DNA of 64,000 nucleotides from Escherichia phage vB_EcoM_JN03: sequence record OR885871. One strand, 5' to 3'. The notes beneath the pieces are model-generated. The model worked only from the letters and a program-made list of their open reading frames with translations, had not been told where the DNA came from and made no database searches. The stretch's first letter is position 1; each line of letters starts with the position of its first letter. The translations under genes and the position numbers were made by a program. This document shows, piece after piece, positions 41,343-49,661 of this stretch.

Positions 41343-41370
41343 ACAGAGGCTATAATGGCCTCTGTTTTTG
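41343..41370 (+). terminator. Terminator hairpin (acagaggctataatggcctctgt + T-run)
   Basis: Perfect 8-bp stem followed by ttttg. Confidence 0.6.
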
Positions 41371-41388
41371 TATTCTAGAGAGGATACC

Positions 41389-42612
41389 ATGAAAGATAAA
41401 CCATATGACATCCCATATTGCGGTGTCCGTGAAACCAAAATCAAATCAGCCCATCCTATGTTAAGTTCATTCCACCGCCAGCTGGCATATGAATGGATGA
41501 GGGATCGTTATGCGATACATGTCAAGAAGGACGTGCAATGCCTTCCAGCGCCATGGACGGATAATCCGGTATTACGCCAAGTCAAGTTTTGTAACGTGCG
41601 GAGAGAGCACGATAGGCAGTCTCGAAATTTGATCAATAATATCATCCTCGATCAGGATCTCACGCTATCTGACAAAATGTTCAACTGTGTATTGTTCCGC
41701 ATGTACAACATGTGGGAACCTATACAGGCTTTGGGTGGTCCATGGACGATCGAAGAATTCGGAAACATAAATCTTGAATGGTGTCGAGATGTTCTTCAGG
41801 AATTCGAATCTAAAGGTGGCAAAGTTTTCACCAATGCGTTTAATACAGGCGGTCTGAAACAATGCCTGGCTTTCCCTGAACTAGTTGTCAACCACAAGGA
41901 GCAACGCTTTGGCGGCATGAAAGTAAAAGTCCATCGGGTTGGCGGTGTTATAGATGAAATGGATTACAAGGTTGCCAAGAAGCTGGCCGAAGATAATCCT
42001 GGTGAATACAAAATAGAAGGCTGGGAACCATACATGCCGATGCGAGTCATCCGCTCTTTGAAGGCATTCGTCAACAAACACCCTCATTACTTTGATCGCC
42101 TCAGGGAATTTAGCCGTCCCGACTCTGTTTACCAGGCGATGTATGACGACATTGAGGGGCTTGGACCATTCTTGGCATACCAGATTTGGGTTGATTTTAC
42201 ATACATCGATGAATATCCATTCAGTGAAAACCACTTCACTATCGCTGGTCCAGGTTGCCGTGCTGGTATCGATCTGTTATTTTTGGACAAGGACGGCATG
42301 ACGCATGAAGAATGCATATTCTGGGTTCGTGATCATCAAGATCAATTGTTCGCTCAGTATGGGTATAAACGTAATGAATTTTGGTCGGCAGAAGAACCGG
42401 AAGATCGTTGCATGAATGTTATGCAGCTGGAGAACATGTTCTGTGAACTTCAGAAATATACCCGCTGCGTTGAGGCGGTGATGCGCGGGGAGAAACCTCG
42501 AGGAAAGGTGGGGTATGACGGGAATGGCAGTGCGTATAAGCAACGTTGTGATGAAGTCGTCCTCAAACGTGGTTCCGTGAATCTTTTAGAACGTTTGAAG
42601 AAACCTGAATAA
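41389..42612 (+). CDS. Hypothetical protein (~407 aa), function unknown
   Basis: ATG with RBS gagagga; the ORF-track start at 41368 is a TTG inside the terminator. No confident motif. Confidence 0.5.
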   Translation: MKDKPYDIPYCGVRETKIKSAHPMLSSFHRQLAYEWMRDRYAIHVKKDVQCLPAPWTDNPVLRQVKFCNVRREHDRQSRNLINNIILDQDLTLSDKMFNCVLFRMYNMWEPIQALGGPWTIEEFGNINLEWCRDVLQEFESKGGKVFTNAFNTGGLKQCLAFPELVVNHKEQRFGGMKVKVHRVGGVIDEMDYKVAKKLAEDNPGEYKIEGWEPYMPMRVIRSLKAFVNKHPHYFDRLREFSRPDSVYQAMYDDIEGLGPFLAYQIWVDFTYIDEYPFSENHFTIAGPGCRAGIDLLFLDKDGMTHEECIFWVRDHQDQLFAQYGYKRNEFWSAEEPEDRCMNVMQLENMFCELQKYTRCVEAVMRGEKPRGKVGYDGNGSAYKQRCDEVVLKRGSVNLLERLKKPE

Positions 42613-42727: not shown

Positions 42728-44746
42728 ATGGCAGAATTCAAACCCTTCGCAACGGCAGTTAATAACAACGTGCTGGCGATGTCCGCAACTGGTCTGTTCA
42801 TGACCAATATCGATAAAGATGCTCTTTGGGATCTGTATCTGGAATCTTTCCCTGCTGGTACCAACCCGCTCTACCGTGAGCGTACCGAGCACGACTGTAC
42901 CTGCTGTAAACAATTCATCCGTAACATCGGCGGTGTGGTCACCATCGACTCCGACCTGAACGTGATTTCCATCTGGGACAACATTGATCTGGGTAATGAA
43001 TATGACGTGGTGGCTGCGGCGCTGTCGGCGTATGTCAAACAACACGCAATCGTCGATGTTTATTTTAACGATTCTGCCAAAGTCGGCCTGTCTCACAATC
43101 ACGAATCTGGTGAAGATGGCAAAATCCGTACTTATAATCATTTCCATACCCAATTACTTGGTAGCTATGTTCTGCGTCCGGACGCAATCGCTTCGAAAAA
43201 AGGTGAAATCCGCCAGGCTATTGAATTGTTTGAACGCGGTCTGCGTGAAATTACTCTGGAATCAGCTGAAATCGTTCTGGAACTGATTGACCAGAATTCT
43301 CTGTATCGCGGCGCAGAACACAAAGCAGCAGTGAAGGGATTTGTTGAAACCAAAAAGGCATATGAACAAGTCCCCGAATCAGCCCGTTCTCTTTGGGCAT
43401 GGCATACTGGATACCGTTCAAACAATCATGTTCCACACGGCATCCGTAACACAGTTATCGGCACTCTGCTGACAGATATCAGCGAAGGCGTGGAACTGGA
43501 AAAGGCTGTTAAATCGTTTGAATCCAAAGTTGCTCCGGCGAACTACAAACGTCCGACAGCGCTGGTTTCAAAATCCATGATCGAAAACGCTCAGAAAGAA
43601 GTTATTGCTCTGGGTTTGGAAGACTCACTGGCGCGTCGTTATGCGGTTTATGATGATCTGACAATCAACAACGTTCTGTTCGCAGATCTGGCTGCTCAGA
43701 AAGCGATGGATCCGTTTGCACAGCTGGCCGCCGAAGTGAAAACTCCGACCAAGTCCCTGGAAAAAGTTGAAGAGATCAGCGTTGATGATTTCCTGAGCAA
43801 TGTTCTGCCAAAAGCGCATTCAATGGAAGTGCTTGTAGAGAATTCTCATACTAGCAACCTGATGTCCCTGGTTGCTCCGGCGAACCCAGATGCGCCTAAC
43901 TTGTTCAAGTGGAACAACGGTTTCTCCTGGTCTTACAATGGTGAAGTGGCCGATTCCATTAAAGAACGTGTAAAGGCTGCTGGCGGTAAAGTTGACGGGT
44001 ATCTGCGCGTTTCCTTGGCGTGGCACAATAACGACGACCTCGATCTGCATATGTTCAACAACATGGAGCACGTTTACTTCCGCGATCGCCGCTCTATGAC
44101 AGGTGCCCATCTGGATATCGATATGAACGGTATGGATGGTATTGATCCAAACCGCGCTCCGGTGGAAAATATCATCTTTACAGATGAAAGCAAGCTGCGC
44201 GATGGTGAATACCGTTTCGAAATCCACAACTACAATCAACGTGAAAAAATCGACGAAGGGTTTGAAGTAGAAGTAGAATACAAAGGCGCAACGCATCGTT
44301 TCAGCCATCCTGGCCTGAAAGATCAGGGGCGTATCACTGCAGTCATCCTGACTGTTAAAGACAAACAAGTTGTTGGCATTAAGTCCGAACTGGCTAATGT
44401 TGATAAGTCTAAAGAAGTTTGGGGTATCAAGACTGCGACCTTCCAGAAAGTACAGCTGGTCCTGAACTCACCAAACCATTGGGATGGCGAGCAGACAGGC
44501 AACAAGCACGTGTTCTTCATCCTGGAAGGTTGTGCTAATCCTGAAGGTACTCGTGGTTTCTACAACGAATATCTGAAGCCAGAACTGGATAAACATCGTA
44601 AGGTTTTTGAAATGTTGGGTAGTAAAATGAAAGTCCAGCCGAATGAAAACCAACTGTCCGGTCTGGGATTCTCGACGACGCAACGCAACCACGTGTTCGT
44701 CAAAGTGTCCGGCGCGTTTAACCGTACTGTAAAAGTCATTTTCTAA
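42728..44746 (+). CDS. Large hypothetical protein (672 aa), function unknown
   Basis: Start context caggaagactataccATG. Cys cluster near the N-terminus (HDCTCC). No polymerase or P-loop motifs found. Confidence 0.5.
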   Translation: MAEFKPFATAVNNNVLAMSATGLFMTNIDKDALWDLYLESFPAGTNPLYRERTEHDCTCCKQFIRNIGGVVTIDSDLNVISIWDNIDLGNEYDVVAAALSAYVKQHAIVDVYFNDSAKVGLSHNHESGEDGKIRTYNHFHTQLLGSYVLRPDAIASKKGEIRQAIELFERGLREITLESAEIVLELIDQNSLYRGAEHKAAVKGFVETKKAYEQVPESARSLWAWHTGYRSNNHVPHGIRNTVIGTLLTDISEGVELEKAVKSFESKVAPANYKRPTALVSKSMIENAQKEVIALGLEDSLARRYAVYDDLTINNVLFADLAAQKAMDPFAQLAAEVKTPTKSLEKVEEISVDDFLSNVLPKAHSMEVLVENSHTSNLMSLVAPANPDAPNLFKWNNGFSWSYNGEVADSIKERVKAAGGKVDGYLRVSLAWHNNDDLDLHMFNNMEHVYFRDRRSMTGAHLDIDMNGMDGIDPNRAPVENIIFTDESKLRDGEYRFEIHNYNQREKIDEGFEVEVEYKGATHRFSHPGLKDQGRITAVILTVKDKQVVGIKSELANVDKSKEVWGIKTATFQKVQLVLNSPNHWDGEQTGNKHVFFILEGCANPEGTRGFYNEYLKPELDKHRKVFEMLGSKMKVQPNENQLSGLGFSTTQRNHVFVKVSGAFNRTVKVIF

Positions 44747-44784: not shown

Positions 44785-45156
44785 ATGTTTGATCAAGCAA
44801 CCCGTTTAAAACTGCGTTTCAACTCTAACAAAGGTCTGCTGTCTGTTGAGCAGGTTTGGGATCTGAACCTGAATGCCCTAAACGAACTGGCGAAAGACCT
44901 CAGCCGTCAGGTGAAGGAAGCCGCCAGCGATGAAGAAGATTTCATCGGCGTGAAAAGCGCAGTCGACTCTCAGTTACAACTGCGTTTCGATATCGTGAAA
45001 GCTATCATCGGTGTTAAACTGAAAGAACGTGACGAAAGCGCAACCGCCGCCGAACGTAAAGCGAATAACCAGGCGATCATGGAACTGATCCAGCGTAAGA
45101 AACAGCAGGAACTGGAAGGTCTCTCTGTTGAAGAACTGGAAAAACTCCTGAAATAA
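44785..45156 (+). CDS. Hypothetical coiled-coil protein (123 aa)
   Basis: Charged helical sequence; terminator directly downstream. Confidence 0.45.
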   Translation: MFDQATRLKLRFNSNKGLLSVEQVWDLNLNALNELAKDLSRQVKEAASDEEDFIGVKSAVDSQLQLRFDIVKAIIGVKLKERDESATAAERKANNQAIMELIQRKKQQELEGLSVEELEKLLK

Positions 45157-45176: not shown

Positions 45177-45206
45177 CAACCCCGCCGTGTGCGGGGTTTC
45201 TTTTGG
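45177..45206 (+). terminator. Rho-independent terminator (caaccccgccgtgtgcggggtt + U-tract)
   Basis: Hairpin plus tcttttgg. Confidence 0.7.
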
Positions 45207-45215
45207 ACAAAGAAT

Positions 45216-45452
45216 ATGAAACAAATTACTAAGACAGTACAAATCACCCAATATCAAACGGATGACGGCAGAGTGTTCGATACTCTTGGTCAGGCCGAAC
45301 ATTATGAGAAGATGAAGTCCGGTATTCGCAAGGTATGCCCTTCTTGTGATGGCAAAGGTCGCGACTCTCCGTCTGGCGACGGGCGTGATATGACGACTTG
45401 TCATTATTGTGGTGGTAAAGGCTGGGTAGAAAAGAAAGAGATATGGGGTTAA
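45216..45452 (+). CDS. DnaJ-type zinc-finger mini-protein (78 aa)
   Basis: Two CxxCxGxG repeats (CPSCDGKG, CHYCGGKG). Confidence 0.5.
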   Translation: MKQITKTVQITQYQTDDGRVFDTLGQAEHYEKMKSGIRKVCPSCDGKGRDSPSGDGRDMTTCHYCGGKGWVEKKEIWG

Positions 45453-45862
45453 TGAAACCTGTCATCTGTGATTACTGCGGCCTTCCTGCCAAATACGTCA
45501 GTGGTGATGTACTCTACCCTCATCGCCCAGATCTACACAAACTGAAGTTCTGGGTATGCTCGCCATGCGACGCTCGTGTGGGTTGCCATACCCATGGGGA
45601 TGGTAGACAACCTCTGGGAAGGATGGCGAATGCCGCTCTCCGTGCTGCTAAGCAGGAAGCTCATAGGTCGTATGACCCTATCTGGAAAAGTGGGCAGAGG
45701 AGCAGGAGTGATGCTTACAGCTGGCTGGCTCATAATCTGGGGATCAAGAAGCGCGATTGCCATATCGGCTTGTTCGATATCGATATGTGCCGTAAAGTAG
45801 TCGCTGTGTGTAATCAACTAGAGGTGTCAAACGATGTCAAAGGAAATACAAGAATCTTTTGA
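45443..45862 (+). CDS. Cys-rich zinc-ribbon protein (139 aa)
   Basis: CDYC ... CSPC cysteine pairs near the N-terminus. Confidence 0.45.
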   Translation: MGLMKPVICDYCGLPAKYVSGDVLYPHRPDLHKLKFWVCSPCDARVGCHTHGDGRQPLGRMANAALRAAKQEAHRSYDPIWKSGQRSRSDAYSWLAHNLGIKKRDCHIGLFDIDMCRKVVAVCNQLEVSNDVKGNTRIF

Positions 45863-46085
45863 AAAGTTATCTCAGGTAATGACCGACTGCAACCGCCGAA
45901 ATTATTGCGATGAAGCGTATACGCAATTGAAAACCGTCGTCGAATCTGAGTTGAATAACCTTTCAACTTTTAAAGATATTCAGACCGAAGTGCTATATCT
46001 GTCGGATGAAGATTTAAGGCGTTGTCCCCGCAAGATTTACCAATTACTGGATCGTTTGGTGAAAGTGGGGGTGGATAATGGGTAA
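45834..46085 (+). CDS. Hypothetical protein (83 aa)
   Basis: Overlapping compact arrangement; no motif recognised. Confidence 0.4.
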   Translation: MSKEIQESFEKLSQVMTDCNRRNYCDEAYTQLKTVVESELNNLSTFKDIQTEVLYLSDEDLRRCPRKIYQLLDRLVKVGVDNG

Positions 46086-46803
46086 TCGTGAAGGGATTAA
46101 ACTCACACAAGAACTTCTGAAGTCACATATTGCTGAAGTGATTTATGAAGACCGTGAAGTCGGTGGCCATCGTGTCATTACATGCCACTTCAAGATGGAC
46201 AATGGCTTCGTCGTCTGGGGGAAGAATAGTTCAACTTCTATCGACCCAGCCAACTTTGATGAAGAGTTGGGTAAGAAACTGGCCTATGAAAAGACCTTCT
46301 CCCAGCTGTGGGAACTGGAAGCATATCGCGCGATGGTAGAAAGGCAGATTATCGATGTGTCCGTCAAAGATGCTAAGATCAACATTGATGAATATGTGTC
46401 AGAAAGGGAAGCGATACATGAGATGGGTGGTTCTGAATTCCTTAAGGGTAAAGGACAATCCGTCGTGTTTCGTCATCCCAAGGATCCAAGTCGGGGATTT
46501 CGAGTTGAATTTGTTCGCACCGATAATGAACGTTATAACGAACGGCGTAATGGTGAAGCAAGATCTTTGGTGGAAGCGTATCTTCGCTCATTCATGACTT
46601 CTGAAGAACTAAATTCTGAACTTGTCTTGCGTTTGGCGAAAACGTGTAATGCTGCTTCAGGGGATTATCCGTGGTGTGACCTGTCAGAAGACAAACGCCA
46701 AGCAGCTTGTGATCGTGTTAAGAAATTCTTGTTAGATCCGAAAGCCCAACCTGGTGATTCCGTGGGGGCGCTGTATAGAGCCATCGTGGTGTCCTACTTG
46801 TGA
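46078..46803 (+). CDS. Hypothetical protein (241 aa)
   Basis: No motif recognised. Confidence 0.45.
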   Translation: MGNREGIKLTQELLKSHIAEVIYEDREVGGHRVITCHFKMDNGFVVWGKNSSTSIDPANFDEELGKKLAYEKTFSQLWELEAYRAMVERQIIDVSVKDAKINIDEYVSEREAIHEMGGSEFLKGKGQSVVFRHPKDPSRGFRVEFVRTDNERYNERRNGEARSLVEAYLRSFMTSEELNSELVLRLAKTCNAASGDYPWCDLSEDKRQAACDRVKKFLLDPKAQPGDSVGALYRAIVVSYL

Positions 46804-46902
46804 TTTTCAAAAGTCTTTCAAAATCAATAACGTCCGGCAAATTGCTGGGCGTTTCAATTAACAAGCCAAGGTATAATGGTCTAATTGTAAAGCGAGGAAA
46901 TC

Positions 46903-47097
46903 ATGTCCGTAAAAATGAAAATTGATATGACCAAACCATTTTTGCGTTCAGGAGTTGACTCTCTTGACTCACAGTTTAAACCCAGCGAAGTTTTAATCCA
47001 ACAGATTGAGACTAATCGCGAATTCATAGAACACATGCTGGTGAAGCCGGAAGGTGAAGCCGTCCATACCACTAAAGAAGGTAATAACGATGATTGA
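46903..47097 (+). CDS. Small protein (64 aa) translationally coupled to the vWA protein
   Basis: Stop codon overlaps the downstream start (ATGATTGA arrangement). Confidence 0.45.
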   Translation: MSVKMKIDMTKPFLRSGVDSLDSQFKPSEVLIQQIETNREFIEHMLVKPEGEAVHTTKEGNNDD

Positions 47098-49306
47098 ATC
47101 ATTAACATTTAAGAATGCGGTTGCGACCGTCGCGCCGTCTAACCATGTAATCGTTGTGGATATCTCCGGTTCCATGTATCGTTCACTTCCAGAAGTCCGT
47201 AAGCATCTGAAGGAGAACCTGCCTTCCCTGGTGAAACCGGAAGATACTGTGAGCATCCTTTACTTTTCATCTCGCGGTGATTTCGGAACGGTATTTGCCG
47301 GACGTCAGATTAACAGTGCAACTGACCTCAGTGAGATCAATAATCTAATTGACCGTTTCCTGAAGCCTTCTGGTTGTACTGGTTTTGTTGAGCCGCTGAA
47401 ACTGGCTGCGGAAACTGCCATTAGCCTGAATAAACCTGGTTATGTTAACAACCTGGCATTCATGACCGACGGGTATGACAACTGCTGGCGTTCTAATGAA
47501 ATCCTGGATGCCGCTGAAGTACTGCCCAAAGCGTTTGATAACATTACCTTCATCGAATACGGTTGGTATTGTAATCGCGAACTGCTGGGGCTAATGGCAG
47601 AACGTTCTGGTGCGACCCACGTATTCGCCGAAGGACAGAATGAATATCAGACCGAATTGGAAAACGTGCTGAAAACTTCTTCACCGAAAGTTGTAGTCGA
47701 TGTTCCTCTGGTTTATACCCATGCCATTTATGTTGAAAATGGCGTGGCGACTGTTTTAGCTGTGCATCCTGATGAAGAGCACCCTATTGGCCACGTCAGC
47801 ATCCCTGAAAGCGTTTCTCAGCTGTGGGTTGTAAACCCCAACATGATCGACCAGCTGGATAATCTGGCAGACATCCAAGCGGCATACGTGCTGGCATTTT
47901 ACGGCGTGTATACCATGGACGCAGATTTGGTTTGGGCTGCGCTGAAGAAAACGGGAGATGTTCGTTTCATCAAACAATACAGCAACTGTTTCACCAAGCA
48001 GGACTATTCCAACATCAAAGTCGATCTGACCCAGGCTATCGTGGATGAAACTCTGCGCGGCGTAGATGGCATCGATTACAATATGGTTCCGGCTGAAGAC
48101 GCCACCACCATTGTTGATGTTCTGACGTATTTGGCTGAAGCAGATGTCTCTATCGTCACCAAGCATCCGCTATTCTCTTACAAGAGCATTGGGCGCGGTA
48201 CTATACAAAAAGTTGACGACACCGAAGACAAGTTGGCCGAAGAGATTGCGAATGCGACTTCTAAAGAAGAGCGTAAAGCCCTGGCGCTCAAACTGGCCGA
48301 GCACGAAGATTGGACGCCGGAATTCAATCCAGCAGATGATAAAGGGATTGTCCCGATCAGCAATTTGGTCTATAATTCAGAACGTCCTAACATCAGTGTG
48401 CAGACAGTTCAACACGGAACGGTTATTGTGCCTGAGTTTGTACAGAAGAAATATGAACTTCCTGAAGAGCTGGGAACCTGGCGTTATCGCAATTACACCA
48501 TTGTCAAGGATGGTATCATCAACCTGAAAACAATGCCTATCACTGCAGATTCTCCGATTGTTCGGGCTAAGGTGGCACAGGATTTGACTGCCATGGGTGT
48601 TCATGTGTTTGGTGGGCCGGAAGTCTTCATTGTAAATCTGGAAAGTGTCCCAATGGTTAACCGCGCCATGACAAAGAATATCAGTGCTGCTGAATTCTTT
48701 GCAGACAATGTGCGCCGTGAAGCATTGAAGGCAAAGCAAAAAGTTCTGAAATTCTACCGTGATGAACTGGTTGGCAAAGGCAACGCTACTGGTCTGGCTT
48801 CAAAATATGGCAAAGAAGCGGCTGATTTCCTGTCAGCAAACGGCATTCGCGACTATGGATTTTCACCGAAGACTTCTTCTGTAGAATCAACCGATGTCTA
48901 TATGAGTCGTGAATTGAATGTGAAAATCAAAGGCGCATCTTCACTGCCGAGCATCGCGTCTGTTATCAAAAAACAGACGGACGGTAAAAAACTGAATGTC
49001 GCTGATCAGCTGATCGCTAATGCCCTGGCCGAATACAATGCGTTTGTTAAATCGCCGATGATCACCAGCGTACCGGAAGAGACTCAGAAAAAGCTGATCG
49101 AAAGTTGGATTGGTGATGCAGCAAAAGCAGCTATCAACGAAGTTCGATCTCTGAACAAAACGCTGTCCAAGGTAGTTTATGGGATTGTTGCAGGCCATGG
49201 TTGGTTTACCGACCTGGATTTGGAAGAATCCACTATGGATGTGGAAGTTGATGGGGTGAAATACACTGTCACTGCCGAACTGGCTGAAAAAGAAGTCAAA
49301 ATCTAA
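47090..49306 (+). CDS. von Willebrand factor A (vWA) domain protein (~738 aa)
   Basis: MIDAS motif VVVDISGSM, conserved Thr region (SGCTGF) and FMTDGYDN, followed by ~550 aa of uncharacterised sequence. Start at the ATG with RBS aagaagg. Confidence 0.75.
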   Translation: MIESLTFKNAVATVAPSNHVIVVDISGSMYRSLPEVRKHLKENLPSLVKPEDTVSILYFSSRGDFGTVFAGRQINSATDLSEINNLIDRFLKPSGCTGFVEPLKLAAETAISLNKPGYVNNLAFMTDGYDNCWRSNEILDAAEVLPKAFDNITFIEYGWYCNRELLGLMAERSGATHVFAEGQNEYQTELENVLKTSSPKVVVDVPLVYTHAIYVENGVATVLAVHPDEEHPIGHVSIPESVSQLWVVNPNMIDQLDNLADIQAAYVLAFYGVYTMDADLVWAALKKTGDVRFIKQYSNCFTKQDYSNIKVDLTQAIVDETLRGVDGIDYNMVPAEDATTIVDVLTYLAEADVSIVTKHPLFSYKSIGRGTIQKVDDTEDKLAEEIANATSKEERKALALKLAEHEDWTPEFNPADDKGIVPISNLVYNSERPNISVQTVQHGTVIVPEFVQKKYELPEELGTWRYRNYTIVKDGIINLKTMPITADSPIVRAKVAQDLTAMGVHVFGGPEVFIVNLESVPMVNRAMTKNISAAEFFADNVRREALKAKQKVLKFYRDELVGKGNATGLASKYGKEAADFLSANGIRDYGFSPKTSSVESTDVYMSRELNVKIKGASSLPSIASVIKKQTDGKKLNVADQLIANALAEYNAFVKSPMITSVPEETQKKLIESWIGDAAKAAINEVRSLNKTLSKVVYGIVAGHGWFTDLDLEESTMDVEVDGVKYTVTAELAEKEVKI

Positions 49307-49314
49307 ATTCAACT

Positions 49315-49338
49315 GGCGGGGAAACCCGCCTTCATTTT
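49315..49338 (+). terminator. Terminator hairpin (ggcggggaaacccgcc + ttcatttt)
   Basis: Right after the vWA gene stop. Confidence 0.6.
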
Positions 49339-49349
49339 GAGATATGCTT

Positions 49350-49661
49350 ATGTCAAACAAACCAACTTATGTTGAAGTAATGCGTGTTCTGGCTCAGTAC
49401 GCTTGTGACAACCTGAACATGGAAACTTGGCGCAACGGGGATCACAAGGACAAGTTTGATAACATTGATGATAATATCGATGCTTTAGCGCCGTTACGGG
49501 TTAAGAATGATCTCGGCGGTGACGATCTTGACATGATTGAGCTGGTCATGGAAATCGAAGAAGAGTACGATGTAGAAATTAGTGACGAGTGGGTGGGTAA
49601 ACATGGAGATGATCCTACCCTCGGAGAGTTAGCTGAACTCGTCGTTGCCCTGCGCAAGTAA
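49350..49661 (+). CDS. Acyl carrier protein-like protein with Ser-to-Asp substitution at the phosphopantetheine site
   Basis: VKNDLGGDDLDMIELVMEIEEEYDVEISDE aligns with E. coli ACP [29 protein letters not shown]; the DSL serine is Asp (DDL). Confidence 0.7.
   Translation: MSNKPTYVEVMRVLAQYACDNLNMETWRNGDHKDKFDNIDDNIDALAPLRVKNDLGGDDLDMIELVMEIEEEYDVEISDEWVGKHGDDPTLGELAELVVALRK

What the first reader, a model, noticed from the sequence alone, without database searches (positions are those of the whole stretch)
46903..49306. Large vWA-domain protein translationally coupled to a 64-aa ORF in the early region
A clear MIDAS-containing vWA domain (DISGS ... T ... TDG) sits at the N-terminus of a ~738-aa protein whose remaining ~550 residues have no recognisable motif. 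The upstream 64-aa ORF ends inside its start codon. vWA proteins usually work with ATPase or kinase partners, but none is adjacent, so the partner may be a host factor or the ACP-like protein next door. This is not a canonical T4 core gene.
Basis: partly seen in the sequence, partly recalled or inferred. Interest (0 to 1): 0.6.

Follow-up and report, generated by a model that had tools for sequence, protein, structure and literature searches.

The report
Conserved phage vWA protein, function unknown
This is a real 738-residue protein of a ViI/CBA120-like Salmonella phage with a metal-dependent protein-binding (vWA) domain and a large tail of unknown fold; it is conserved in hundreds of large phages and already annotated, but nobody knows what it does.

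Summary
The window is a Kuttervirus (Ackermannviridae, ViI/CBA120-like), not T4.

**Gene pair**
- A 64-aa ORF (46903-47097) overlaps by 8 nt (ATGATTGA) the ATG of a 738-aa ORF (47090-49306).
- The large ORF has an N-terminal vWA domain with a fully conserved MIDAS.

**Architecture**
- Residues 1-320 have the vWA + beta-sandwich + helical layout of ArnB, Sec23/24 and ITIH.

**Distribution**
- The family is large: 503 phage records and 1,317 clusters at 50% identity, all with the same architecture.
- It spans Ackermannviridae, RB43-like T4 relatives, pf16, Bacillus PBS1/AR9 and Rhizobium phages.
- No neighbouring gene is shared across these lineages.

**Evidence against an early host-takeover role**
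- The distant AR9 homologue is a late gene.
- LIMEstone1 virion proteomics found the homologue with 6 peptides; Sajous1 found only 1 spectrum.

**The proposed partners**
- The "ACP-like" neighbour has Asp/Glu in place of the phosphopantetheine serine.
- A conserved terminator-like hairpin separates it from the vWA gene.
- It occurs only in Ackermannviridae.

**Verdict**
Most likely a MIDAS-based protein adaptor acting late, associated with virions or assembly at low copy. The mechanism is inferred, not shown. Moderate interest.

The parts
46894..46897 (+). Shine-Dalgarno-like GAGG, 5 nt before the ATG of the small ORF
   Evidence: Read directly from the sequence.
46903..47097 (+). Small acidic ORF, 64 aa, pI 5.0, with the core motif VLxxQxExNRxFIExML. 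Restricted to Ackermannviridae and present as several divergent alleles.
   Evidence: ORF list. phrog_8656 at E 6.5e-40. tblastn finds 209 phage records, with alleles down to 47% identity in phages whose vWA protein is 99.5% identical. Frame, motif and overlap are kept across alleles. pI.
47077..47081 (+). Shine-Dalgarno-like GAAGG for the vWA gene, lying inside the small ORF
   Evidence: Read directly from the sequence.
47090..47097 (+). 8-nt overlap ATGATTGA: start codon of the vWA gene plus stop codon of the small ORF. This geometry is typical of translational coupling.
   Evidence: Sequence. The same 8-nt overlap is seen in most Ackermannviridae loci, including divergent small-ORF alleles.
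47090..49306 (+). vWA-family gene, 738 aa, 81.5 kDa, pI 5.0, soluble. CBA120 orf143, Vi01_123c, LIMEstone1 ORF108, phrog_2426.
47090..47674 (+). vWA domain (residues 1-195) with MIDAS: DxSxS at 47159-47173, T97 at 47378-47380, D127 at 47468-47470
47675..48049 (+). Beta-sandwich (residues ~196-250) and helical bundle (~251-320), completing an ArnB/Sec23-24/ITIH-type core
48050..49303 (+). Family-specific C-terminal region (residues 321-738): mixed beta and long helices, with a conserved basic core around residues 531-635. No known relative.
49315..49330 (+). GC-rich hairpin GGCGGG-GAAA-CCCGCC followed by TTCATTTT: terminator-like element 9 nt after the vWA stop codon
   Evidence: Terminator scan. 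A hairpin is present at the same place, with different stem sequences, in other Ackermannviridae genera and in RB43-like phages. It is annotated as a terminator in LIMEstone1 and pf16.
49344..49661 (+). ACP-fold protein, 105 aa, pI 4.2, lacking the phosphopantetheine serine (DDL instead of DSL): a pseudo-ACP. Neighbour only; a link to the vWA protein is unproven.
   Evidence: Pfam PP-binding at E 3.7e-7. Alignment with E. coli ACP shows Asp or Glu at the serine position in all 18 distinct homologues. Found only in Ackermannviridae. pI.

Best explanation
The gene encodes a soluble ~81-kDa member of a large, phage-specific protein family.

**Anatomy**
[quoted passage not shown] This is the arrangement seen in archaeal ArnB, Sec23/24 and inter-alpha-inhibitor heavy chains.
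- The last ~420 residues form a conserved domain with no known relative.

**Proposed mechanism**
- It acts as a protein adaptor. The MIDAS metal captures an acidic side chain of a partner protein, and the C-terminal domain provides the family's specific scaffold or activity.
- In Ackermannviridae it is made together with a small acidic helical protein by translational coupling, as the last gene of its transcription unit.

**Proposed timing**
- It most likely acts in the late phase, as a low-copy virion-associated or assembly-associated factor, rather than as an early host-takeover protein.

**Shown:** gene, fold, MIDAS conservation, family breadth, coupling geometry, and detection in one virion proteome.
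**Inferred:** ligand capture through the MIDAS, the late or assembly role in this phage, and binding of the small protein.
For: - Pfam VWA above its cut-off, with MIDAS residues invariant or nearly so across 44 homologues down to 34% identity.
- The ArnB paper describes the same vWA / beta-sandwich / helical-bundle architecture in Sec23/24, YfbK and 4fx5 (PMC12852372).
- The whole length is conserved, with strongly conserved polar motifs in the C-terminal part.
- Fixed architecture in 1,317 clusters and 503 phage records across several virus families.
- No TM segment and acidic overall, hence soluble.
- LIMEstone1 virion MS: 6 unique peptides and 11.4% coverage, similar to low-copy baseplate proteins in the same table. 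Evident contaminants there had 1 peptide (annotation).
- The AR9 homologue g068 rises from 0.96 to 105.6 to 431.5 at 5, 20 and 40 min, with its own primary start site. This parallels virion genes.
- The 8-nt overlap with the small ORF is conserved across divergent alleles.
- The hairpin after the stop codon is conserved in position.
Against: - Virion association is inconsistent. CsCl-purified Sajous1 (Kuttervirus) gave 1 spectrum, the same as dUTPase or the clamp loader.
- Vi01_123c is not among the genes labelled "phage associated protein" in the ViI record.
- The AR9 homologue is only ~26% identical, so its timing may not transfer.
- The gene lies among replication and nucleotide-metabolism genes, not in a structural module.
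- No ligand has been identified, and no partner is conserved across lineages.
- The C-terminal domain might be an enzyme, in which case "adaptor" understates it.
- No complex modelling was possible, so binding of the small protein is inference only.
Confidence: 0.4

Rival explanations
1. A non-structural cytoplasmic adaptor for host takeover or counter-defence. It binds a host protein through the MIDAS, possibly helped by the small ORF product and the pseudo-ACP. Its virion detection is carry-over of an abundant protein.
For: - Located among replication and nucleotide-metabolism genes.
- 1 spectrum in Sajous1 virions and not flagged in ViI.
- The two flanking small genes exist as sharply divergent alleles (47% and ~60% identity) next to a 99%-identical vWA gene. 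Such a pattern can arise under arms-race selection or by mosaic exchange.
- No capsid-targeting or signal sequence is evident (inference).
Against: - 6 peptides in LIMEstone1 virions.
- Late expression of the AR9 homologue.
- No PADLOC hit, though that library does not hold anti-defence proteins.
- The protein itself is very conserved, unlike many counter-defence proteins.
- No literature support was found.
Confidence: 0.25
2. A co-chaperone that recruits a host MoxR-type AAA+ ATPase (such as RavA) to remodel or metallate a target, as in CobST, NorQD or RavA-ViaA.
For: - vWA/MIDAS proteins often pair with MoxR ATPases. A MoxR-vWA pair is needed for tail development in an archaeal virus and is predicted in some jumbo phages (PMC7824862).
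- Enterobacterial hosts encode RavA (own knowledge).
Against: - No AAA+ gene is adjacent in the window, and none recurs among neighbours in 63 loci.
- None is listed among conserved Vi01-like functions.
- The family occurs in phages of Bacillus and Rhizobium as well, so a single host ATPase partner is unlikely.
Confidence: 0.08
3. An accessory of the thymidine hypermodification (5-NeOmdU) pathway, suggested by the nearby hypermodification gene and the ACP-like gene.
For: A gene matching Pfam HMUDK_hel (E 1.8e-83) lies 4.5 kb upstream at 41368-42612. By synteny it corresponds to ViI orf00160, one of the five proteins used to reconstitute 5-NeOmdU.
Against: - The reconstitution needed gp67, gp160, gp226, gp243 and gp247, and no vWA protein (PMC8989533).
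- The phyletic ranges differ. The hypermodification gene is in Ackermannviridae, Vibrio, Microbacterium and Pseudomonas phages. The vWA family is also in RB43-like, Bacillus PBS1/AR9 and Rhizobium phages.
Confidence: 0.03
4. An exposed virion adhesin that binds a host surface ligand through the MIDAS, like pilus-tip vWA adhesins.
For: - Structural hits include pilus adhesins PitA, SpaC and RrgA.
- Detected in LIMEstone1 virions.
- A few GenBank records call it a tail protein.
Against: - The adhesin hits cover the vWA domain only.
- The protein is 99% conserved among Kuttervirus with very different tailspike sets and has no hypervariable region.
- Very low abundance in Sajous1.
- The "tail protein" labels are unsupported automatic names.
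Confidence: 0.04

Closest known systems
ArnB / ArnE of Sulfolobus (PDB 8s05, 5a8j) and the bacterial structure 4fx5 (Catenulispora vWA protein)
   Different: - ArnB is ~380 aa. The phage protein carries an extra ~420-aa conserved C-terminal domain with no counterpart.
- ArnB works with a zinc-finger/FHA partner (ArnA), a kinase and a phosphatase (PMC12852372). None of these is encoded nearby.
- Sequence identity is 12-17%.
Sec23/Sec24 COPII core and inter-alpha-trypsin-inhibitor heavy chains (ITIH1, 6fpy)
   Different: No zinc finger or gelsolin domain (Sec23/24) and no VIT domain (ITIH). Different C-terminal region. These proteins are eukaryotic, and ITIH is extracellular.
MoxR-associated vWA co-chaperones (NorD, BchD/ChlD, CobT, ViaA)
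   Different: No AAA+ partner gene. In those proteins the vWA domain is usually C-terminal. They are weaker structural matches than ArnB-type proteins.
phrog_2426 / VOG3102 / GenBank "vWA domain-containing protein" of Ackermannviridae (CBA120 orf143, Vi01_123c, LIMEstone1 ORF108, RB43 ORF119c, AR9 g068)
   Same: This is the same gene family: 99% identity to many deposited Kuttervirus proteins, and a full-length match to phrog_2426 at 1264 bits.
   Different: Nothing differs. The family is catalogued but has no assigned function.

Membership tests
[quoted passage not shown] | Sequence match to the family profile above the curated threshold | tested here: met
   PF00092 at 30.7 bits against a cut-off of 23.8, E 4.3e-7, residues 20-182.
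[quoted passage not shown] | Complete MIDAS: DxSxS, a Thr, and an Asp on three loops | tested here: met
   D24, S26, S28, T97 and D127 are present and invariant or at least 90% conserved in 44 homologues.
[quoted passage not shown] | Rossmann-like alpha/beta fold | tested here: met
[quoted passage not shown] | Metal binding and metal-dependent ligand binding | not testable with these tools
   Needs biochemistry.
ArnB / Sec23-24-type vWA core | vWA domain combined with a beta-sandwich and a following helical bundle | tested here: met
   264-295 residues aligned to 8s05_B, 4fx5, 6fpy and 1m2v_B. Secondary-structure order: strands 200-248, then helices 252-318. Architecture as described in PMC12852372.
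ArnB / Sec23-24-type vWA core | Zinc-finger (and FHA) partner or domain, with regulation by a Ser/Thr kinase and phosphatase | tested here: not met
   No such domains in the protein or in the neighbours scanned with Pfam. DUF3268 and DnaJ-type zinc-finger ORFs lie 1.2-1.9 kb upstream, but nothing links them to this gene.
MoxR AAA+ / vWA chaperone pair | A MoxR-type AAA+ ATPase gene next to the vWA gene | tested here: not met
   None among neighbours in the window. No neighbour family is shared across 63 loci. None is listed among conserved Vi01-like functions.
Virion structural protein | Reproducible detection in purified virions at levels above contaminants | tested here: inconclusive
   LIMEstone1: 6 peptides, 11.4% coverage. 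Sajous1: 1 spectrum. ViI record not flagged.
Virion structural protein | Fold or domain of a known structural component | tested here: not met
Acyl carrier protein (the neighbour at 49344-49661) | PP-binding (four-helix) domain | tested here: met
   PF00550 at E 3.7e-7, above its cut-off. NCBIfam ACP models score below their cut-offs.
Acyl carrier protein (the neighbour at 49344-49661) | Conserved serine of the DSL motif that carries phosphopantetheine | tested here: not met
   Asp (DDL) here, and Asp or Glu in all 18 distinct Ackermannviridae homologues aligned with E. coli ACP.
Thymidine hypermodification pathway (5-NeOmdU) | Required for, or co-inherited with, the pathway enzymes | tested here: not met
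   Not among the five proteins that reconstitute the modification. Its phyletic range differs from the neighbouring pathway gene.

The most novel reading that the evidence does not exclude
The family is a previously unrecognised, phage-wide class of MIDAS adaptors whose ~420-aa C-terminal domain is a new fold with its own activity. The protein would be packaged at low copy or act at assembly. In Ackermannviridae its MIDAS would be plugged or regulated by an acidic residue of a dedicated partner: either the translationally coupled small protein, or the pseudo-ACP, whose phosphopantetheine serine has become Asp/Glu. This would be a new way for large phages to manipulate a host or phage target.
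Probability: 0.12. Interest if true: 0.7.

Novelty: new variant of a known kind. Interest (0 to 1): 0.38.

Why it matters
This is one of the larger conserved "dark" proteins of big virulent phages. It is a core gene of Ackermannviridae, which are used in biocontrol and diagnostics, and it is shared with RB43-like, Pseudomonas, Bacillus jumbo and Rhizobium phages. Function unknown.

If its MIDAS ligand and the role of the orphan C-terminal domain were found, hundreds of phage genomes could be annotated at once. It might also reveal a new assembly or host-interaction step.

Two points correct current expectations:
- The "acyl carrier protein" next to it cannot carry an acyl group at the usual site.
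- The virion-proteomics record for the vWA protein is contradictory.

As it stands, though, the gene is already catalogued (phrog_2426, "vWA domain-containing protein"). Nothing here shows an unusual mechanism.

Tried and rejected
**C-terminal domain**
- Pfam on pieces of the C-terminal region at E up to 10, plus NCBIfam and PADLOC: nothing meaningful.
- PDB sequence searches with the single protein and with profiles of the whole protein and of the C-terminal part: only the vWA domain matches.
- Fold search of the full model was dominated by the vWA domain.

**Conserved partners**
- ORFs from 66 loci were clustered. Beyond the vWA gene itself (63 loci), no family is present in more than 25 loci, and all the recurrent ones are lineage-specific.
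- The upstream 672-aa protein was rejected as a partner. Its range is different: Vequintavirinae-like, Caulobacter, Bacillus, Vibrio and Microcystis phages.
- The RB43 upstream 64-aa ORF was tested as a homologue of the small ORF: no similarity.
- A link to thymidine hypermodification was rejected.

**Cellular homologues**
- Only 4 loci were found in 185,579 species genomes. The one examined lies in an island of hypothetical genes.

**Expression timing**
- The T4 late-promoter motif TATAAATA occurs once in the window (2.1 expected), so it is uninformative for timing.
- The sigma-70 scan was not above background: 12 sites against 8.8 expected.

**Literature**
- No functional study of this family was found.
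- The AR9 genome paper and the ViI proteomics paper are not held.

**Correction**
- My early note equated the gene at 41368-42612 with ViI gp67. By synteny it is orf00160.
Full report
**1. What the window is**

The 2.4-kb stretch is 98-99% identical to many Salmonella and Escherichia phages of the genus Kuttervirus (Ackermannviridae; ViI, Det7, CBA120). The large ORF is CBA120 orf143 and the small one is orf145. In phage moki they are moki_59, "putative vWa containing protein", and moki_58. In ViI the large ORF is Vi01_123c. The phage is therefore T4-related only in its replication and morphogenesis core. It is not T4.

**2. The observation**

- The small ORF runs 46903-47097 (64 aa), with a GAGG 5 nt before its ATG.
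- The large ORF is listed mechanically from a GTG at 47054, but every homologue begins at the ATG at 47090. That gives 738 aa with the stop at 49304-49306.
- The two ORFs overlap by 8 nt (ATGATTGA). A GAAGG lies 8 nt before the ATG, inside the small ORF. The small ORF's stop is therefore just past the start codon, not inside it.
- The geometry fits translational coupling. It is kept in most Ackermannviridae loci even where the small ORF is a different allele.
- Pfam VWA is matched above the gathering score.
- The MIDAS residues D24, S26, S28, T97 and D127 are invariant or nearly so in an alignment of 44 homologues down to 34% identity.

**3. Anatomy of the protein**

An AlphaFold2 model built on that alignment is confident throughout: mean pLDDT 87.2, with no segment below 50.

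N-terminal third:
- The longest and best alignments are to proteins that combine the vWA domain with a beta-sandwich and a helical bundle:
- A profile of the family also finds ArnB by sequence (E 6.5e-5).
- The ArnB paper describes exactly this three-part core and notes it in Sec23/24, YfbK and 4fx5 (PMC12852372).
- Residues 1-320 are thus an ArnB/Sec23-24-type vWA core.

C-terminal part:
- Pfam, NCBIfam and PDB sequence profiles give nothing.
- This part is as conserved as the vWA domain. It has strongly conserved polar motifs: RPNIS, YRNYTIVKDGI, GIRDYGFSPK and ESTDxYxSKELNVKIKGLSSLP.
- It has a basic core around residues 531-635 in an otherwise acidic protein.
- There is no membrane segment or obvious signal peptide.

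**4. The family**

- tblastn finds the protein in 503 phage records, 496 of them at nearly full length:
  - all Ackermannviridae genera
  - RB43-like and related Straboviridae of Klebsiella, Enterobacter, Citrobacter and Cronobacter (~48% identity)
  - Pseudomonas phage pf16 (36%)
  - Bacillus jumbo phages PBS1/AR9 (26%)
  - Rhizobium Kleczkowskaviridae (23%)
- A profile of the C-terminal region alone, run against 1.84 billion representative proteins, finds 1,317 clusters (812 at E of 1e-30 or better). The listed ones nearly all have the region behind a ~320-residue N-terminal part, in proteins of 700-800 aa.
- Only four loci turned up in 185,579 bacterial and archaeal species genomes. The family is essentially viral.
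- It is catalogued as phrog_2426, "unknown function". RB43 ORF119c was noted as vWA-like in 2006 (PMC1524935).
- I found no functional study.

**5. Neighbours and the proposed partners**

I extracted ORFs from 66 loci and clustered them. No neighbour family accompanies the vWA gene across lineages, and the recurrent ones are lineage-specific. No AAA+ ATPase or protein kinase is adjacent.

The 64-aa ORF:
- It is found only in Ackermannviridae.
- It occurs as several alleles sharing the core VLxxQxExNRxFIExML.
- Phages whose vWA protein is 99.5% identical can carry small-ORF alleles only 47% identical.
- Its conserved C-terminal Asp-Asp is forced by the overlap with the vWA start codon. It therefore says nothing about function (inference).
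- RB43-like phages have an unrelated small ORF in the same position.

The ACP-like gene (49344-49661):
- It has the PP-binding fold.
- The serine that carries phosphopantetheine is Asp here, and Asp or Glu in all 18 distinct homologues. It cannot be a conventional acyl carrier.
- It is very acidic (pI 4.2) and confined to Ackermannviridae.
- It too occurs as alleles of ~60% identity.

The hairpin:
- A GC-rich hairpin with a T-rich tail sits 9 nt after the vWA stop codon.
- A hairpin is found at the same place, with different stem sequences, in other Ackermannviridae genera and in RB43-like phages.
- It is annotated as a terminator in LIMEstone1 and pf16.
- The vWA gene therefore tends to end a transcription unit, and the pseudo-ACP lies beyond it.
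- A partnership is not excluded. An exposed Asp/Glu would be a plausible MIDAS ligand. It is untested, however, and cannot be general for the family.

**6. Timing and location**

Nothing shows that the gene is early.

- The only measured homologue, AR9 g068, is a late gene. Its expression is 0.96, 105.6 and 431.5 at 5, 20 and 40 min, with its own primary transcription start. This resembles the virion genes in the same table.
- In LIMEstone1 (83% identical protein), ESI-MS/MS of virions found ORF108 with 6 unique peptides and 11.4% coverage. That is comparable with gp27, gp6 and the tape measure in that table. Proteins regarded as unexpected there had 1 peptide. The GenBank record says "confirmed structural protein".
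- Against this, CsCl-purified Sajous1 (Kuttervirus) gave 1 spectrum for the vWA protein and 1 for the ACP-like protein. That is level with dUTPase and the clamp loader, whereas the tape measure gave 52.
- The ViI record does not flag Vi01_123c as "phage associated", although it does flag nearby MS-detected proteins. Reading that label as MS evidence is my inference.
- Other proteomic studies analysed only major bands.
- Overall the evidence points to late production and a loose or low-copy association with particles. It does not establish a stoichiometric structural role.

**7. Mechanism**

Established knowledge of vWA domains is that an intact MIDAS binds a divalent cation, and that a ligand Asp/Glu completes the coordination. 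Intracellular vWA proteins such as Sec23/24, ArnB, Rpn10, TFIIH p44 and Ku act as protein-interaction modules.

My best explanation is a MIDAS-based adaptor whose specific role resides in the orphan C-terminal domain. It would act late, at or near assembly, possibly carried in the particle at low copy (confidence 0.4).

The rivals are:
- A cytoplasmic host-takeover or counter-defence adaptor, with virion detection as carry-over (0.25).
- A co-chaperone for a host MoxR ATPase (0.08).
- A surface adhesin (0.04).
- A thymidine-hypermodification accessory (0.03). The last is contradicted by the in-vitro reconstitution without it (PMC8989533) and by mismatched phyletic ranges.

The remaining probability is for something not considered, such as an enzyme activity of the C-terminal domain.

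**8. Novelty and score**

- The gene is already deposited and named many times, and the family is catalogued, so the observation itself is not new.
- New here:
  - the ArnB/Sec23-24-type assignment of residues 1-320
  - the finding that the C-terminal 420 residues have no PDB relative
  - the breadth and fixed architecture of the family
  - the pseudo-ACP
  - the contradiction in the proteomic record
- I class it as a new variant of a known kind (vWA/MIDAS adaptors).
- I score interest at 0.38. It is a worthwhile target among phage dark matter, but nothing demonstrably strange was found.

Noticed in passing
window 49344-49661: The "acyl carrier protein" of Ackermannviridae has Asp or Glu where every true ACP has the phosphopantetheine-bearing serine (DDL/DEL instead of DSL). 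This holds for all 18 distinct homologues aligned. It is very acidic (pI 4.2) and has a ~45-residue N-terminal extension. It is probably a pseudo-ACP with a binding or mimicry role, and is mis-named in GenBank.
   Followed up: partly
window 42728-44746: A 672-aa protein of unknown function (phrog_1735, no Pfam hit) is found at nearly full length in 558 phage records from very different groups: Ackermannviridae, Vequintavirinae-like, Caulobacter phiCbK-like, Bacillus, Vibrio, Alteromonas and Microcystis phages. One record calls it DUF2135-containing. Its range does not match the vWA family.
   Followed up: partly
window 41368-42612: A gene matching Pfam HMUDK_hel (5-hmdU DNA kinase helical domain, E 1.8e-83). 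One GenBank record annotates it as aGPT-Pplase clade 1. By synteny it is Vi01_130c/orf00160, apparently the "gp160" used in the 5-NeOmdU reconstitution. The window therefore carries part of the thymidine hypermodification apparatus.
   Followed up: partly
window 46903-47097 and 49344-49661, compared with 47090-49306: The two small genes flanking the vWA gene exist as sharply divergent alleles within one genus (47% and ~60-63% identity), while the vWA gene between them stays 98-99% identical. This suggests local mosaic exchange or fast evolution confined to the flanks.
   Followed up: partly
window 49315-49330; also 45178-45198: Strong terminator-like hairpins. The one after the vWA gene is palindromic (it scores on both strands) and is conserved in position, with different stem sequences, across genera and even in RB43-like phages. 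Another follows the 123-aa gene at 44785-45156.
   Followed up: partly
window 45189-45452, 45443-45862 and 46078-46803: Between the 672-aa gene and the vWA pair lie three small genes: an 87-aa ORF with DnaJ-type CxxCxGxG zinc-finger repeats (weak hits), a DUF3268 zinc-finger protein (E 4.8e-37), and a 241-aa protein with an N4 gp49 / Sf6 gp66 family N-terminal domain (E 1.2e-12). Functions unknown.
   Followed up: no
L030 5134-5646 and L032 9094-9561 (RB43-like loci): Two different small proteins flanking the vWA gene in RB43-like phages both begin with the same N-terminal motif MKIRSGFVSNSSSSSF. The one scanned (the 170-aa protein of L030) has no Pfam match; the other was not scanned. They may be paralogues of an uncharacterised family.
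   Followed up: no
L074 9301-11320 (Vi01_128c and Vi01_129c): In the ViI reference record the homologue of the 672-aa gene is annotated as two ORFs of 552 and 1476 nt that overlap at their junction and share one orf number. This could be a frameshift, a sequencing error or a real split.
   Followed up: no
L026 and L065: In two loci the vWA gene itself appears split into two ORFs (475+291 aa and 175+471 aa). The cause could be frameshifts, assembly errors or inserted elements.
   Followed up: no
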